Assembly: GCA_031431875.1 (NCBI GenBank)
Contig: JANPEF010000147.1
Location: 1-56,219 of the forward strand
Length of the DNA stretch: 56,219 bases
Direction: 5' to 3'
From: Candidatus Eiseniibacteriota bacterium
GTDB lineage: Bacteria; Eisenbacteria; RBG-16-71-46; DASYSL01
Position numbers: made by a program. Below, one piece after another: positions 21,001 to 33,000 of the stretch. Positions within the stretch are counted from its first letter, which is position 1. Every line of letters starts with the position of its first letter.

Positions 21001-24000
21001 ACCTCGAGCGCCACGGCAATCTCGATCGTGCGCGCGGCCGGGCCGTCGTGCGACAGCGTGATGCGGCGGATCTCGAGCGGCAGCGTGGGGTGCACGGCGA
21101 CCGCCAGGCGCGCTTCGATCTCGTGCTCCACCCGCGAGAACTCGACCGCACCCGGTCCGAAGCGCGCGCGCACGGCGCCGGTACGCGGCGCGCACGGCGC
21201 GGCCGCGACCGACCACAGCGCATCGCGTTCGCGGTCGACGAGCCAGACGAGGAAGCCGTCGCCGTCGACGATCGGGTCGCCGGCCCAGCGTGTCAGTGCA
21301 TGGGCGCCGAACGTCGACAGCCCCGTCCCGCCCGCGGTGACGAGCGTGGAGTACCCCCCGTTCGACAACAGCGCGGCGACCGGTGGCGCGGGGCGCCGAA
21401 GCAACGAGGCCGCGCCGGCGAGGGCAGGGACAGGCTCAGGGACAACGCTCATCGCACCTTCACGAGGCGAGCCACGGTCGAGGACTCGCCCATCGTGAGC
21501 CGCAGGTGATAGAACCCGGGAGCCAGGCGCGAGCCGTCGACCGGCAGTGCCTGTTCCCCGGCAGCACGGACCTCGTCGCCCAGGTGCGCGACGATGCGAC
21601 CCCGCGCATCGATCAGGTCGGCGCGCACGCGACCGGCGGCGGCGAGGCGGAAGCGCACGACGGTGCGATCGCGGAACGGCGTCGGCTCGACCGCGCGCAG
21701 CATGATCGCCGGGGCGCCCACGCCGACCGCATCATCGCCTACGTCGGTCGTGATCGGCGTGAAGCCCGCTCGCGCGAGGCCGTTCGCAAGATCCGGATCA
21801 TTGCTGAGACGCCGCCACACGGCCTCGCTACGGTAGTTCTCGATCATGAGCACGATCGGGCCCTGGTCGATGCCCAGGACGTCCTGGCCGGTCCAGCCGA
21901 CCGTGGGATTGAACGCGTCGGTGAATCCGTACGGACCCCACAGCGAACCGCGCCAGTTGTCCCACAGGTTATGCATCAGCGGCACCACGACCTCGGGCGC
22001 GAACGGTAGCGACGAGATGCCCGCAGTCGGCGTGATCGTGCCATTCTCGCTCCAGGCCGGCGGCGCACCGTGCGCCGCGTAGCCGGAAGGATCGTCCGAG
22101 GCAGTGAGTCCCCACAGGCTGTCCGAGTACGCTTCCCAGCCCAGCGGGTTGTCGATGCAGTAGGCTCGTTGCGCGAGCGTGGCGCGCCGCGAGTTCTCGA
22201 AGTATGTGATGCCGCGGAATTGCATGTAGCCGTCCTGGATGCCGCGGAAATCCAGCCAGCAGTGCGAGTACTGGTGCCCGAACAGCGGCGGGAAGACGAC
22301 GTAGCTCTGGCCGTAATGCGTCTGCCAAGAGTAACCGTTGAGCCACGTGCCCCACAGCATCGGGATCGGATGGGTCGGCGACCCGAGCGCCATGATATAG
22401 AGGATCATGGCCTCGTTGTAGCCGACCCAGTGGCCGTACCCGCCGAACCCGGTGCCGGGCTTCCATCCCATGTAGATTCCGGCTGTGAGGTTTCGCGTGA
22501 AGTTCCAGTCGCAGCGCCGCCAGATCGAATCGGCCAGCGCGCGGATCTGGACCTCCTCCGGATGGAGTCCGCTGAAGTACTGCTTCGTGTCGAGGATGCC
22601 GGCCATGAGTAGCGCGGTGTCGATCGTCGACAGCTCCGAGTTCCACGTGCGCCTGGCCGTATTCATGTCGAGCCAGTGATAGAACAGGCCCTTGTAGCCG
22701 ATCATGCCGTCGACGGCCGTGCCCTGCGGCCCGCTCCAGAACGTGTCGAGCGTGGTGAGCACGCGCGAGCGCACGGCCGCGCGATCGAGCCAGCCGCGGT
22801 CGACGCCGATGCACAGCGCCGACAGGCCGAAGCCGGTCGAGGCGATGCTGCTCACGGAGCCCGGTGTGTCGCGGTCCTTGATCAGCCCGTTGGCCGGATT
22901 CGCCTCGTTCCAGAAGTAGAGGACGCCCGCGTGCTGCACGGTGTCGAGCAGCGCCTCGGTCGTGAGCGCGTGCGCGGGCCGGGCCGCGGGCAGAGCGAGA
23001 GCGCCGAGAACGGCGATGGCGACGACGGCGAGTGCGAGCCCGCGCCGGAGCACGGACGGCGGATGGATGCTGGATGCGTGGCCCATGGATGGATCCTCCG
23101 TCGTCACGATCAGAACTCGATGCCCAGTGTCATGCGGTGCGCCACCTCGAGACGGCCCATGTCGGCATAGGCGTAGTCGAAGCGGAACCCCAGCGCGTCG
23201 TTCAGGTCCCCGCGGACGCCGGCGCCCAGCGTGAGGCCACCCTCGGCGTCCTGCTTGAACAGGTTCTGCCAGCCGGCGCGAAACGCGAACAGCGCCTTGT
23301 ACGCGTACTCCCCGCCCAGGTTCAGGCTCTCGCTATTATCGCTCGGGTGGAGCGCGTCGAGCGCAAAGCGCAGGCGGTTCCGCGGATCGATCCGCACCGG
23401 CAGGCTGACGCCGAAGCGCATCAGCACCGGGACGGAGTGCGATTCGGTGAAGATCTCGGCGGGCAGCGCCGGATTGTCTCCATTCACATCCGGATCCTGG
23501 TCGTAGGTCACGCGCAGGTCACGCCCGGAGAACTTGCCGCCGACCCCCAGGTTCGAGAGGCTCGCGCCCAGCTCGAGCCCGCCCTCGCTCACGCGGTAGA
23601 GCGTGCCGAGGTGGAACACGGCGGTCGAGAGCGTGCTGTTCCAGATCCGTTCCTGCAGCCATGAAGCTTGCACGCCAATCGTGAAGCGGTCGGTGATCGG
23701 CCGGCCCCAACCGATTCCGACGGCGAGGTCCGTCACGTTGAAGCGTTCGCCCGTACCCAGGGGCTGGCTCACGGTTCGAACTTCGATGTCGCCCGAGCCG
23801 AGCTGCGTGACGCTGCCAACCAGCGCGCCGGCTCCCCCCAGCGGAAATGCCGCGACGACATGGTTGTAGTCGATCCCGGCGATCCACTCGGCGTGCGACA
23901 GCCCGACCCCGCTCTCGCTGATGCGCCCGATCGCCGCCGGGTTGTAGTACGTCGCGTCGAGGCCGAGGCCGAGCGACACGCCGGCGTTACCCATGGCGAC

Positions 24001-30000: not shown

Positions 30001-33000
30001 CGCGCGCGCCCACGCTGCCGCCGGCCGCCCCCACGAACGTGAGGACGGCGGCGAGCGCGATGTTAGTGAGCCGTCGGATCACTGCACGAACGTGAGCTTG
30101 CCGGACAGCGTCGTCCGCTCGACTCCGCTCACCGGATCAGTGACCCGCAGGCGGTAGAGCACGAGACCCGGGCCCTCGGCGCGCGGCACCACGATGTGTC
30201 CCTCGCCGGCGGCGCGCACGCCCAGGTTGTGCTCCATCAGCTTGCGCCCGGTCACGTCGTAGGTCTCGAGCAACAGGCGGCTCGCCTGCGCGAGCTGGAT
30301 ACGTACCGTCGCGTTCGAGCGCACGGGATTCGGGGAAGCGCCGAGAATCGTGTAAGCGCCGGGAGCGCCGGGCGGAGGGTCGCCCACCGCGACGACAGCG
30401 GTCGGATCGGCGTAGGCCCAGACCGGACAGCAGGTCGCCTCGCGCTCGCGCATGTACCAGGTGCGAGTGGCATAGCTGTCGGTCCACGGGGTGAACGAAT
30501 CGCCGTCGTTGTAGATCATGCCGAGGTGGACGATGCCGTCGCCCAGACCGGCCGGATAGCCGAGCTTGGTGAGATCGACTCCCAGCTCGGCCGTATACCC
30601 GACGTCAGGCGAAAGCCCAAGCGTGTCCAGCGTGGTGCCCGGCTTGAGCAGCAGCGCGACCTGGGCGCCCGCGAGGGAGTCGCGCAGGTACGGCAGGTAA
30701 TTCCCCGCCAGGGCGGTGCCCGTCGCGGACACCTGGAACGACAGCGTGCGGCCGAGTAACTGGCGGTCGGAGCCACGCAGCACGTTCTCGTTGAGGAAGA
30801 CGGCGAGACCGTCTTCGCGACCGACTTCGACGAGGTTCTGGACGACCTGATCGTCGACGTCGAACCCGAAATACAGCCAGTCGTTCTTGACCACGTACTT
30901 CACGCGGACCTCGCCTGGATCGATGATCGCGGCGAGCCCGCCGTTGACCGTGGGCTGGTACTGCCCGGAGCGGTGCGCCGCCACCCCTCCATAGCTTGCG
31001 CGCAGCGCGTCGTCGCCGTAGCGCAGCGTGATCTGGGGGGCCTGCGCCCACACGGCGTCCCCCAGATTGCCGTCGATGACCGGCGCGGCGAGTGCTCCGG
31101 CGTTGGGCAGGATCAGTTCTGGTCCGATGACCGGCACGGTGCCCGAGGCGACGGTGACACCCGGCCGGGCATGGATGCGCACTTCGCCGTACCAGGCAGC
31201 GTTGCCCCACGGATCCTGCCACCACACACGGTTGGCGCTGAACTTCGGGGGGTCGTTCGGCCACCTCCAGTCGCAGTCGTAGATCGAGCCAGTCCACTCG
31301 ATGATGTCGCCGCCGGGTTGCGTGATGTCGTACCCCATGACCCCCAGGTCGAAGCGCATCTCCATGATGTAACCCGTGTCGAGCAAGGTGTCCGAGTTGG
31401 CGGTGCCGAGCACCCTGGTCACCGCATCCCACGCCGCGATCTGTTCCGGCGTGCGCGGCGAACCGACCGGTTCCTCGGCCCACAGCCCCTTGAACGCCGG
31501 GCCCTGCCCGATGGGCGGCGTGCCGAATTGACTCTCGTACCACCAGCCGTACAGGTACTCCGAATTCGGCTTGGGCGCACCGGTCGAGGCGTGGTTCTTG
31601 AGATTCATGAGCAGGCCGTCGAACCGGTTGAAGATCTCCGAACCGCCGATCGAATTGTCGCGCACGAAGGCACCCAGGTAGAGCTGGTTTCCCACGGTGA
31701 GGAACTTGAGCGTCGCGTGCGTCGGATCGATCGGGGTGGCGCCGGATTCGATCTTCCAGCCGCTGCCCGGCACGCCCGAGTCGATGCCGAAGCGGATGAC
31801 CGTCGACTCGGCAAGTGCCCAGGCTGGCTCGTTCAGGTTGCCGTCGAGGGTGATCGAAGCGCCGTTGGTGGAGCGGGCCCAGATTGCGTCCTTGCGTTCC
31901 GCGTGCGCGGCGCCGGCGGCGAGCAGAGCCGTCGCAGCGATGGCGAACAGGATGAGCTTCTTCATGATGAGGATCTCCTGGCCCGTGGCGTGGCCGATCG
32001 CGCTTCGCTGCCGGCGCGCTCCGATCCGCACGAGCGGCGGATCACGAGCATGGCCGGAGTGACCTGATGGCGGCGCTTCAAGGCTGCGCCGTTCTTCCCG
32101 TCGACCAGCCTCTCCACGGCGCGGGCGCCAAGATCGAGCAGGTCGACGTGGACGGTGGTGAGCGGCGGATTAAGATAGCGGGCCATGGCAATGTCATCGA
32201 AACCGACGATGGCCATGTCCTCGGGAACGCGAAGCCCCGCCTGGGCAAGCGCGCTCATCGCCCCGATCGCCATGTAGTCATTGGCGACGAAGATCGCCGT
32301 CGGCCGCGGCCGCAGCGCAAGGAGCCGCGCCACCGCCGAATAGCCGGACGGTTCGGTGAAATCGCCCGCGGCGACAAAGGCCGGATCGGGCTTGAGACCG
32401 CGCGCCGCGAGCGCCTTCCGCCAGCCCTCGAGGCGCTGCCGGGCGTCGGCGTTCTGGGTCGGCCCGGCGATCATGGCAATGAGTCTGTGCCCAAGTTCGA
32501 GCAGGTGCGTGACCGCGGCCACGGCTCCGCCGGCATTGTCAATCGAGATCGAGTCGCAGCCGATCGCGCGCACGCCCGGATCGAGCAGGACCAGCGGAAA
32601 GCCCGGACCCGCAGCCTTGACCAGCACGGCGGTGTCCACGTCGGGCGCCATGACGATGAGCCCTTCGATCCGCCCGCGCATCGCGCGCAGCGCGCCGACG
32701 AGATCGTCGCCGTTGGCATGCGAGCTCGAGACGAGCAGGTGCAGGCCGTCGCGGCGTGCCCGCAGATCGATCCCGCGGAGCACTTCGGAAAAGAATTCAC
32801 CGTACAGATCGGGGAGGAGCACGCCAAGCGCATGGGTCCGGCTGGTGATCAGGCTGCGCGCGGTCTCGTTCGGCGTGTAGTCGAGGCGAGTCGCAGCGTC
32901 CTTGACCCGCGCACGAGTCTCCGACTTCACCCGCACATTGTCGTTCAGGACGCGCGAGACGGTCGCGACCGAGACGCCCGCGGCGCGGGCGACATCACGA

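What a model noticed while it worked through the whole genome (the two positions that open the first line are those of the whole stretch)
23110..31965. Three-part outer-membrane module (Oar-type TonB receptor + ~1000-aa family-less T9SS cargo + PorV-like barrel), one copy [...]
Three loci (C147 g03000-g02998, C106 g02210-g02212, C145 g02963-g02965) repeat the same gene trio: an Oar-like TonB-dependent receptor, a 919-1086-aa secreted protein without any Pfam family that ends in a divergent T9SS-type C-terminal domain, and a 314-361-aa PorV/FadL-like barrel; the C147 copy lies between a LacI regulator and GH94 + two sophorohydrolase-like genes + a sugar ABC importer. Boldest reading: this is the lineage's counterpart of the Bacteroidota SusC/SusD pair, in which the glycan-catching partner is a T9SS-exported beta-sandwich protein held at the surface by its own PorV-like anchor. 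New would be a second, T9SS-dependent design of polysaccharide utilisation loci.
Evidence so far: Gene order and Pfam. BLASTP within the proteome: the three big proteins share only ~100-200 aa, mostly the tail (27-34% id), with each other and with g03110, g01501, g01493, g01288; the barrels g02212/g02965/g02998/g01503 are 28-36% identical and hit PorV g01174. Pfam PorV 2e-07 and 6e-05 for g02212 and g02998, nothing at E<=0.01 for the three big proteins. g02211: 269 database relatives at E<=1e-20, the 120 listed unnamed and without Pfam; AF2 model pLDDT 73, all-beta; best PDB hits partial (TM<=0.19): beta-sandwich parts of GH116/GH94 enzymes, Fn3 chains, PorU. SprA g00541, PorU g01173, PorV g01174, PorX-like g01663 present.
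(Added by a program. Inside this text positions count along the whole contig: contig position 1 is position 1 of the stretch shown here. "Call 12" and the like, gene names such as g00115 and contig names such as C1 are that model's own, and its searches are not shown. The text may have been shortened before it was handed on; [...] marks where a part breaks off. The agent that wrote the report below was given it as the finding of a first reader that could run no searches.)

Follow-up and report, generated by a model that had tools for sequence, protein, structure and literature searches.

The report
TonB transporter, secreted partner, private PorV barrel
A sugar-uptake operon of an Eisenbacteria-like bacterium is built around an outer-membrane import channel, a large unnamed secreted protein and that protein's own small PorV-type barrel, a gene set that is kept in the same order in many phyla and may be an undescribed way to give an uptake channel a surface partner.

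Summary
The trio is real and non-random, but no physical complex was tested. A secreted GH144-like enzyme, GH94, a lipoprotein GH144-like enzyme and an ABC importer follow.

BIG is one family across the genome's four trios by profile search, not only by its tail. Its N-terminal half models as a galactose-mutarotase-like supersandwich (Z about 19). Its tail is a variant type-A CTD with an extra loop.

Gene order receptor-BIG-barrel held in 68 of 68, 30 of 30 and 29 of 29 testable loci of three paralogue classes, in at least ten phyla. SusD was found in none of 121 genomes sampled from this phylum.

Three of the four own copies lie outside sugar loci, so the module is general and not glycan-specific.

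Best reading (0.55): a T9SS-exported substrate-capture partner docked on its own barrel beside the transporter. The complex prediction never ran, and no RNA data were found.

This scan has already noted the same trio on other DNA; a word look-up returned 257 notes. I found no description of it in print.

The parts
31962..33056 (-). LacI-family regulator; its stop overlaps the next gene's ATG by 4 nt
   Evidence: Pfam LacI 5.7e-19 and Peripla_BP_3 5.7e-42. ATGA junction from the ORF coordinates and the junction sequence.
30079..31965 (-).
   Evidence: Of 37 family members, 27 match CBM9_1 (best 1.1e-08) and 30 match Por_Secre_tail (best 4e-12). AF2 pLDDT 88.7. Residues 283-521 match CBM9 1i82 at Z 17.5, 173 aligned, rmsd 2.6; residues 28-268 match 2ivf_C at Z 12.2.
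27401..30082 (-). TonB-dependent receptor (893 aa) with a CarboxypepD_reg N-terminal extension and a plug
   Evidence: Pfam CarboxypepD_reg 1.6e-16 and Plug 7.7e-06. Partial NCBIfam TonB receptor hits. GTGA overlap with the upstream gene.
24144..27425 (-). BIG: 1086-1093-aa secreted, family-less protein. Order: signal peptide, galactose-mutarotase-like supersandwich with an acidic D/G-rich insert, Fn3-like domain, further beta-sandwiches, variant type-A CTD.
   Evidence: No Pfam or NCBIfam family. AF2 pLDDT 84.2, pTM 0.74. Fold matches 9ju0 at Z 19.4 (260 aligned) and 1lf6 at Z 19.4 (236 aligned). Tail homology. No cysteine follows the signal peptide.
23110..24147 (-). PorV/PorQ-family outer-membrane barrel (345 aa); its GTG overlaps BIG's stop by 4 nt
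   Evidence: NF033709 at 9.6e-52, 176.6 bits, cut-off 90. The family profile hits F. johnsoniae PorV 6h3i_F at 3.1e-28. Junction.
21449..23107 (-). PF10091 (GH144-like) enzyme with signal peptide and a type-A-like CTD; probable surface endo-beta-1,2-glucanase
   Evidence: Pfam Glycoamylase PF10091 8.1e-79. Weak Por_Secre_tail 0.0054. Tail alignment.
17862..21452 (-). GH94 phosphorylase without a signal peptide (cytoplasmic)
   Evidence: GH94_b-supersand 1.6e-113 and Glyco_hydro_94 1.6e-110. N-terminus.
16402..17865 (-). second PF10091 (GH144-like) enzyme with a lipoprotein-type signal peptide
   Evidence: PF10091 7.4e-82. Its N-terminus, read from the junction sequence, is hydrophobic and ends in a cysteine.
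13384..16498 (-). ABC sugar importer: solute-binding protein (15107-16498) and permease region (within 13384-15333)
   Evidence: SBP_bac_1 3e-42 and BPD_transp_1 6.9e-18.

Best explanation
The window holds a LacI-controlled, translationally coupled operon for beta-1,2-glucan use.

Its outer-membrane core is a general three-gene module: a TonB-dependent transporter, a large secreted partner (BIG), and a private PorV/PorQ-type barrel. The proposed steps are inferred, not shown.

1. BIG crosses the inner membrane by Sec and the outer membrane by the T9SS, through its variant type-A C-terminal domain.
2. BIG is not released. Its tail stays bound to the cognate barrel encoded next to it, as PorZ does on PorQ and PorU on PorV.
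3. The barrel holds BIG beside the transporter.
4. BIG's conserved supersandwich and acidic insert, together with its class-specific middle domains, capture or hand over the substrate for TonB-driven import.

In this copy the rest of the pathway would run as follows. A CBM9-like T9SS cargo binds the glucan and a GH144-like T9SS cargo cuts it at the surface. A lipoprotein GH144-like enzyme trims it in the periplasm. The ABC importer and GH94 finish the job.

The three other copies in the genome would serve other substrates.
For: Operon: 4-nt overlaps join LacI/CBM9 gene, CBM9 gene/receptor, receptor/BIG (from the GTG at 27404), BIG/barrel, GH144a/GH94 and GH94/GH144b.

Barrel: PorV/PorQ family in all 4 own trios, 173-185 bits against a cut-off of 90. 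The family profile hits solved PorV at 3.1e-28.

T9SS: SprA_N; PorU at 553 bits against a cut-off of 420, next to PorV on C58. The PorU model's CTD part hits about 50 other ORFs.

Tail: hhalign of the BIG family against the CBM9-cargo family gives 86.5%, E 4.6e-06, CTD on CTD. All four own BIG tails share VVPNPY, a 9-15-aa insert and a WDL/WNL motif. Both ordinary CTDs of the same operon lack these. The C106 and C145 tails weakly hit the PorZ and PorU models (4.4e-05, 4.9e-04).

One family: colinear profile hits across the own-genome paralogues.

Fold: AF2 pLDDT 84.2, pTM 0.74. Residues about 35-700 match the supersandwich of GH15, GH94 and GH116 enzymes and aldose epimerases at Z 14-19.6.

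Linkage:
- C147 type: receptor 68 of 71 and barrel 68 of 68. The 3 misses are artefacts of the coordinate rule, as one search shows.
- C145 type: 30 of 30. This is 29 of 29 without the unpublished genome G015.
- C106 type: receptor 30 of 30, barrel 29 of 29. Without G015 this is 29 and 28.
- Of 40 further relatives, the 4 with the full architecture all sit in trios. The 36 that share only the N-domain have no receptor next door.

Co-inheritance: barrels group by the class of the adjacent BIG, with SH-like support 95-100 (FastTree).

SusD_RagB: 0 of 121 genomes sampled from the phylum. Own genome 0 hits at 98.45% completeness.
Against: - No binding, localisation or expression evidence exists. 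The complex prediction never ran, and no RNA run holds the stretch.
- The tail is below threshold for every curated CTD family. Of 41 family members, 9 have weak hits and 1 is over the cut-off.
- GldM and GldL equivalog models found nothing. The controls were silent too, so this is inconclusive. No PorZ is over its cut-off.
- BIG is 55-65% identical between phyla. That is unusually conserved for a substrate-binding surface protein.
- The glucan locus has its own CBM9-like binder, so BIG need not bind the glycan.
- The supersandwich fold is conserved in copies that lie outside sugar loci. A shared fold shows no function.
- The N-domain also occurs in 36 of 40 sampled relatives without a receptor or an adjacent barrel.
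Confidence: 0.55

Rival explanations
1. BIG and its barrel form a locus-specific T9SS attachment or sorting pair, like PorU-PorV or PorZ-PorQ. They would place the operon's other CTD cargo (the CBM9-like binder and the GH144-like enzyme) at the transporter. BIG itself would not handle substrate.
For: Foldseek lists PorZ 5m11 (1.4e-05) and PorU 6za2 (2.8e-05) among the matches. The C106 and C145 tails weakly hit the PorZ and PorU models. The barrels score next best on the PorQ model. Two ordinary CTD cargos are encoded in the same operon. No canonical PorZ is over its cut-off in the genome.
Against: The PorZ and PorU matches have TM scores of at most 0.14 and come from chains of beta domains and the tail. 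Neither reaches the 50 best rows by Z. The PorU family model did not hit the four trio BIGs. BIG's middle domains differ between classes, which fits substrate-specific parts better than a sorting role.
Confidence: 0.15
2. BIG is a surface enzyme of a new family. It would be a mutarotase-like or glycan-active enzyme that uses the supersandwich as its catalytic domain and processes the substrate before import.
For: The supersandwich is the catalytic fold of aldose 1-epimerases (Z about 14) and part of the active site in GH94 and GH15 enzymes. Many acidic and aromatic residues are nearly invariant.
Against: No (alpha/alpha)6 or other catalytic domain accompanies the supersandwich. The model is almost all beta. 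The same N-domain and core are kept in copies beside DNase/PLD-like genes, an M6 peptidase and GWxTD genes. The locus already encodes three glucan-active enzymes.
Confidence: 0.1
3. The trio is an outer-membrane unit whose job is not nutrient capture. BIG could be a shield or cap for the transporter, an adhesin, or a partner needed for the transporter's assembly, held by a FadL-like barrel as BamH is held by BamG in the Bacteroides BAM complex.
For: High conservation across phyla and occurrence in loci of unrelated content fit a structural role. A 14-stranded FadL-like barrel that binds an extracellular subunit and a second barrel is described for BtBAM (PMC12578637, passage read).
Against: BIG's middle domains are class-specific. 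The trio sits in the middle of a substrate-specific, LacI-controlled operon, with 58 of 66 related loci of 9 kb or more holding GH94 or GH144. That ties it to substrate use.
Confidence: 0.12
4. The adjacency is fortuitous: unrelated T9SS cargo and a spare PorV paralogue happen to lie beside a receptor.
For: By BLAST the big proteins share little. Some family members and some PorV-like barrels in the genome are orphans.
Against: Gene order is kept in 68 of 68, 30 of 30 and 29 of 29 loci of three classes. The genes overlap by 4 nt. Barrels group by the class of their neighbour.
Confidence: 0.01

Closest known systems
SusC/SusD (RagA/RagB) pairs and utilisomes of Bacteroidota polysaccharide utilisation loci
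   Same: A TonB-dependent transporter with a CarboxypepD_reg-type N-terminal extension is encoded immediately before a surface partner. The pair lies inside a regulated locus with surface binders, surface and periplasmic enzymes and an inner-membrane importer.
   Different: The partner is an all-beta, roughly 1090-aa Sec/T9SS-type protein without a lipobox, not a helical SusD lipoprotein. A third gene, a PorV-type barrel, is always present. The receptor scores 55.5 bits against a cut-off of 368 for SusC/RagA. No SusD is in the genome. What I say of SusCD architecture is recalled, not read here.
PorZ-PorQ and PorU-PorV pairs of the T9SS attachment complex
   Same: A CTD-bearing surface protein is paired with a PorV/PorQ-family barrel. 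The own genome has PorU directly upstream of PorV on C58. The BIG tails weakly resemble the PorZ and PorU tails.
   Different: The barrels are below the equivalog cut-offs for PorV (57-66 bits against 250) and PorQ (58-98 bits against 220). BIG shows no PorU or PorZ body match. The pair is fused to a transporter gene and occurs four times per genome. That PorU and PorZ keep their tails and stay bound is recalled.
Type-B CTD cargo with cognate PorP/SprF-like shuttle or anchor barrels (Gorasia 2022, PMC9143113; Paillat 2025, PMC12618676; abstracts read)
   Same: Cargo and its private barrel are encoded side by side. The barrel is needed for secretion or anchorage, and the tail carries a targeting signal besides the secretion signal.
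   Different: Here the barrel is of the PorV/PorQ family. No PorP/SprF family was listed at the thresholds used. The tail aligns with type-A CTDs. Only 3 of 41 family members give weak CHU_C hits.
TbpA/TbpB-type receptor and surface-protein pairs with a Slam translocon (Hooda 2017, PMC5449769; search listing and start of the abstract only)
   Same: Three outer-membrane genes: a TonB-dependent receptor, a surface partner that captures the nutrient, and a dedicated barrel that brings the partner to the surface.
   Different: Different protein families and a different export route (lipoprotein and DUF560 barrel in Proteobacteria). The gene-cluster detail is recalled.
Ignavibacterium album endo-beta-1,2-glucanase gene cluster (Kobayashi 2022, PMC8861115; passages read)
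   Same: It combines two GH144 genes, a GH94 homologue, an ABC binding protein and a TonB-dependent transporter proposed to import beta-1,2-gluco-oligosaccharides. Loci labelled I. album (L027, L034) have the receptor directly upstream of BIG. L027 also shows the barrel after BIG; L034 ends inside BIG, so its barrel cannot be seen.
   Different: The passages I read do not mention BIG or the barrel. Figure S1 was not visible to me. That the type strain carries the trio is inferred from MAG loci.

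Membership tests
PorV/PorQ family (NCBIfam NF033709) | Whole-protein score over the curated cut-off of 90 bits | tested here: met
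   C147 barrel 176.6 bits. C106 184.8, C145 173.1 and C75 183.6 bits. The family profile hits solved PorV 6h3i_F at 3.1e-28.
PorV proper (NF033710) or PorQ proper (NF033711) | Equivalog cut-off: 250 bits for PorV, 220 bits for PorQ | tested here: not met
   C147 barrel: PorV 62.2 bits, PorQ 66.1 bits. The other three: 57-66 bits for PorV and 58-98 bits for PorQ.
TonB-dependent receptor | Plug domain and a 22-strand barrel domain | tested here: met
   Plug 26.8 bits against a cut-off of 23.9. The barrel region gives partial NCBIfam TonB receptor hits. PF00593 is over its cut-off in the C106 and C145 paralogues, but it was not listed for the C147 copy at E<=0.01.
SusC/RagA family (TIGR04056) | Score over 368 bits along the whole protein | tested here: not met
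   55.5 bits, on residues 36-160 only. The nearest solved receptors are PqqU and YncD at 7.4e-04.
SusD/RagB | SusD_RagB domain; helical TPR-like lipoprotein encoded after the receptor | tested here: not met
   BIG has no SusD Pfam hit and is almost all beta. PF07980 gives 0 hits in the own genome and in 0 of 121 phylum genomes.
T9SS type-A C-terminal domain (TIGR04183 / PF18962) | Family model over its cut-off at the C-terminus | tested here: inconclusive
   The C147 BIG has no hit at E<=0.01. Of 41 family members, 1 is over the cut-off and 8 more are weak. Profile-profile comparison gives 86.5%, E 4.6e-06 to a type-A CTD family. The shared motifs are visible.
Type-B CTD with PorP/SprF barrel | CHU_C / TIGR04131-type tail and a PorP_SprF-family barrel | tested here: not met
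   The barrel hits listed are PorV, OMP_b-brl, Toluene_X and UPF0164, with no PorP_SprF. CHU_C is weak in 3 of 41 BIG relatives.
Galactose-mutarotase-like supersandwich fold (BIG residues about 35-700) | Structural match covering the domain, well above background | tested here: met
   9ju0 Z 19.4, 260 aligned, rmsd 3.1. 1lf6 Z 19.4, 236 aligned. 8rf9 Z 18.9. 6ggy Z 18.0. Aldose epimerases Z about 14. The model has pLDDT 84.2.
CBM9 (upstream 628-aa protein) | CBM9 family model and fold | tested here: met
   The window protein itself is below the cut-off (CBM9_1 E 0.0087). Of 37 relatives, 27 match, best 1.1e-08. For the fold, 1i82 gives Z 17.5 with 173 of 189 residues aligned. Sugar binding was not tested.
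Canonical polysaccharide utilisation locus | Adjacent susC-like and susD-like pair beside CAZyme genes (definition recalled) | tested here: not met
   No susD-like gene is in the locus or the genome. The CAZyme genes and the regulator are present.

The most novel reading that the evidence does not exclude
Across the Bacteroidota-related phyla there is a second general design of TonB-dependent capture complex. A T9SS-exported partner keeps its variant C-terminal domain and is docked on a private PorV/PorQ-type barrel. That barrel bridges the partner to the transporter, much as BamG bridges BamH to BamA. The set has duplicated as a whole, and each copy has been retuned by swapping the partner's middle domains for glycans, nucleic acids or peptides.
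Probability: 0.4. Interest if true: 0.85.

Novelty: new variant of a known kind. Interest (0 to 1): 0.7.

Why it matters
TonB-dependent uptake with a surface partner is understood mainly from SusCD in Bacteroidia and from TbpAB-type systems in Proteobacteria.

If this trio forms a complex, several things follow. It would explain how many abundant but little-studied sediment, soil and marine phyla feed on polymers, where no SusD was found in the sample tested. These include Eisenbacteria, Ignavibacteria, Calditrichota, Fidelibacterota and Fibrobacterota. It would give the T9SS a role in building uptake machines. It would also put a name and a fold on a family with 3216 sequence clusters at E<=0.001, 516 of them at E<=1e-30. 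Finally, locus predictions that look for susC/susD pairs would have to be widened.

Tried and rejected
The queue was full or the machine gave no usable answer. Docking is therefore untested.
- No RNA holder is listed for the stretch.
- Foldseek with the whole BIG model gave only chains of Fn3-like domains at low TM scores. The fold came from VIA-align.
- BIG's middle and C-terminal domains were not folded alone, so I make no statement on their folds.
- The 537-aa and 457-aa genes upstream of the C106 and C145 receptors are not alike (BLASTP E 0.91). The idea of a conserved fifth gene was dropped.
- GldM and GldL (TIGR03517, TIGR03513) were not found, but the controls were silent too.
- PorZ: no match over the cut-off.
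- Whether the high identity between phyla reflects gene transfer could not be settled. Phylum labels need 18 changes on the BIG tree against a minimum of 9, but MAG labels are unreliable.
- Literature searches found no description of the trio. Subscription journals are not covered, and the supplements of PMC8861115 were not opened.

Full report
**What is there**

The window is contig C147 of a 3.75-Mb genome that is 98.45% complete. G+C is about 67-73%.

On the minus strand lies a run of tightly packed genes:
- LacI regulator, 31962-33056.
- A 628-aa protein, 30079-31965.
- A TonB-dependent receptor, 27401-30082 (CarboxypepD_reg 1.6e-16, Plug 7.7e-06).
- BIG, 24144-27425: 1093 aa, or 1086 aa from the GTG at 27404. 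It has no Pfam or NCBIfam family.
- A 345-aa barrel, 23110-24147.
- A PF10091 enzyme with a signal peptide and a CTD-like tail, 21449-23107.
- GH94, 17862-21452.
- A second PF10091 enzyme with a lipoprotein-type signal peptide, 16402-17865.
- An ABC solute-binding protein and a permease.

Six junctions are 4-nt ATGA or GTGA overlaps. The barrel/GH144a junction has a 2-nt gap. Reading PF10091 as GH144 rests on recall and on the Ignavibacterium album cluster described in PMC8861115 (passages read).

**The span holds four genes, not three**

Of 37 relatives, 27 match CBM9_1 (best 1.1e-08) and 30 match Por_Secre_tail (best 4e-12). The window protein itself is below the cut-offs.

Its AF2 model has pLDDT 88.7 and pTM 0.81. 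The model shows:
- A CBM9 fold at residues 283-521 (1i82: Z 17.5, 173 aligned, rmsd 2.6).
- A related DOMON/CBM9-like domain at residues 28-268 (2ivf_C: Z 12.2).
- A tail that superposes on solved T9SS CTDs (8qb1 Z 9.0; 8glk_D Z 8.4).

A homologue precedes the receptor in 50 of 59 related loci with room. The locus therefore already has an obvious glycan binder.

**The barrel**

It is a PorV/PorQ-family member: NF033709 at 176.6 bits against a cut-off of 90. It is well below the PorV and PorQ equivalog cut-offs. The same holds for the barrels of the other three trios. The family profile finds solved Flavobacterium johnsoniae PorV at 3.1e-28.

**BIG is one family**

A profile built from 65 relatives of the C147 copy tells a different story. 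It hits the others colinearly in an N-terminal domain, a core and the tail: C145 2.8e-82, C75 4.3e-45, C106 1.2e-36. It also hits three orphan genes on C75, C153 and C61.

The family is large and unnamed:
- 1941 hits among the 8000 candidates scored. The 120 best are 63-100% identical over the full length, and none has a Pfam domain.
- 3216 clusters at E<=0.001, of which 516 are at E<=1e-30.
- The 30 nearest Atlas clusters are all 'hypothetical protein'.

**BIG's fold**

The AF2 model has pLDDT 84.2 and pTM 0.74 and is almost all beta. Whole-model Foldseek gave only Fn3-type chains, plus PorZ and PorU, all at low TM scores.

VIA-align places residues about 35-700 on the galactose-mutarotase-like supersandwich. 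This is the fold at the N-terminus of GH15, GH94, GH116 and GH65 enzymes and of aldose epimerases:
- 9ju0: Z 19.4, 260 aligned.
- 1lf6: Z 19.4, 236 aligned.
- 8rf9: Z 18.9.
- 5h3z: Z 15.7.
- Epimerases: Z about 14.

No catalytic (alpha/alpha)6 domain follows. The most conserved columns include an acidic D/G-rich insert around residues 393-443 and several tryptophans. Reading that insert as calcium-binding is my inference.

**BIG's tail**

Profile-profile comparison with the CBM9-cargo family aligns tail on tail (86.5%, E 4.6e-06). In a direct alignment, all four own BIG tails share VVPNPY, a 9-15-aa insert and a WDL/WNL motif. The two ordinary CTDs of the same operon lack these. The insert is the low-confidence stretch 995-1009 of the model.

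Curated CTD models mostly miss the tail. Of 41 relatives, 9 have weak hits and 1 is over the cut-off. The tails of the C106 and C145 copies weakly hit the PorZ and PorU models.

**Linkage**

- C147 type: the 80 best of 590 relatives in one-genome-per-species contigs. The receptor is directly upstream in 68 of 71 by the script's rule. The three misses (L067, L077, L079) show an abutting receptor ORF. The barrel is directly downstream in 68 of 68. GH94 or GH144 occurs in 58 of 66 loci of 9 kb or more.
- C145 type: 30 of 30 loci have receptor, BIG and barrel. One of them comes from the unpublished genome G015; without it the count is 29 of 29.
- C106 type: receptor 30 of 30, and barrel 29 of 29 with room. 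This set also includes one G015 locus.
- A further sample of 40 matches from the table. I chose them in listed order among places away from contig ends, and added two longer matches. Four have the full architecture, and all four are in trios. The other 36 share only the N-terminal domain of about 300 aa. None of the 36 has a receptor beside it, and one has a weak PorV-like hit 3.2 kb away. I scanned 18 of the 36. They carry PKD, He_PIG or FG-GAP/ASPIC domains, and most carry ordinary CTDs. The N-domain is thus a reused cargo module; the trio goes with the full architecture.

Barrels group by the class of the BIG next to them (FastTree, 98 rows, SH-like support 95-100; G015 rows left out; 30 C147-type rows drawn at random).

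**Range and SusD**

Record titles name Eisenbacteria, Krumholzibacteria, Ignavibacteriota, Bacteroidota, Rhodothermota, Calditrichota, Fidelibacterota, Fibrobacterota, Chlorobiota, Kryptoniota and KSB1. The window's BIG groups with Eisenbacteria.

SusD_RagB was found in 0 of 121 sampled genomes of the phylum. It was found in 2 of 5 carriers from other groups. So the trio is not simply a substitute where SusD is missing.

**Context of the other copies**

- C106: housekeeping genes, an unknown 537-aa gene, the trio, a GWxTD protein, then IS elements.
- C145: an M6 peptidase with a CTD, a GWxTD protein, an unknown 457-aa gene, then the trio.
- C75: a partial receptor at the contig end, the barrel, BIG, then an ExeM/NucH-like and a PLD-like CTD protein.

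Only the C147 copy is in a sugar locus.

**Secretion system**

SprA_N is present. PorU scores 553 bits against a cut-off of 420 and lies next to PorV on C58. The CTD part of the PorU model hits about 50 further ORFs. GldM and GldL were not found, but the controls were silent too. No PorZ is over its cut-off.

**Reading**

Shown:
- The operon structure.
- The family assignments.
- The folds, as predicted.
- The synteny and the co-inheritance of barrels with BIG classes.

Inferred:
- Export of BIG by the T9SS.
- Retention of its tail on the cognate barrel.
- Proximity to the transporter.
- A role in substrate capture.

The closest known mechanisms are set out under Closest known systems. In short, this works like a receptor-plus-partner system. 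It is a member of none of those families except PorV/PorQ for the barrel and TonB-dependent receptors for the channel.

**Earlier notes and print**

The scan has noted this trio before on other DNA. One search returned eight look-alike notes, and one search reports 257 notes holding the search words. Those notes are leads, not support; the counts above are my own. Seven literature searches found no description. [quoted passage not shown]

Noticed in passing
G000:C139:21561-21851 (L004 6561-6851): A 97-aa stretch is 66% identical to BIG residues 242-337. It lies directly after the stop of a 538-aa ORF and in the same frame. It may be a remnant or a broken copy.
   Followed up: partly
G000:C75:35096-38651: Two overlapping plus-strand ORFs (513 and 796 aa) together cover the BIG architecture: the N-domain, then the core and tail. 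This could be a frameshifted or mis-assembled fifth family member. It has no receptor or barrel beside it.
   Followed up: partly
G000:C75:50361-56295 (L003): The fourth trio has a different order (receptor, barrel, about 0.8 kb of spacer, BIG). It is followed by ExeM/NucH-like and PLD/DUF5689 CTD proteins, which hints at nucleic-acid scavenging.
   Followed up: partly
G000:C28:21927-23933 and G000:C94:19383-20698: Two further PorV-like barrels each follow a smaller protein, with no receptor nearby. One is 301 aa with weak BIG-core likeness. The other is a 627-aa ORF with a PorU-type tail hit. Private cargo-barrel pairs may therefore exist on their own.
   Followed up: no
L115-L152 (phylum relatives): The N-terminal domain of about 300-430 aa of the C145-type BIG is 35-59% identical to the N-termini of many other T9SS cargo proteins. 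Those carry PKD, He_PIG or FG-GAP/ASPIC domains.
   Followed up: partly
G000:C106:69797-71260 and G000:C145:14304-15599: GWxTD-domain proteins (TIGR04514, 2.4e-20 and 3.8e-28) lie beside two of the trios. Their function is unknown to me.
   Followed up: no
window 16402-17865: The second GH144-like enzyme starts at an ATG that overlaps the GH94 stop. It has a lipoprotein-type signal peptide, so it probably acts in the periplasm.
   Followed up: partly
window 33127-34359: A 410-aa minus-strand ORF upstream of LacI has no Pfam or NCBIfam family.
   Followed up: no
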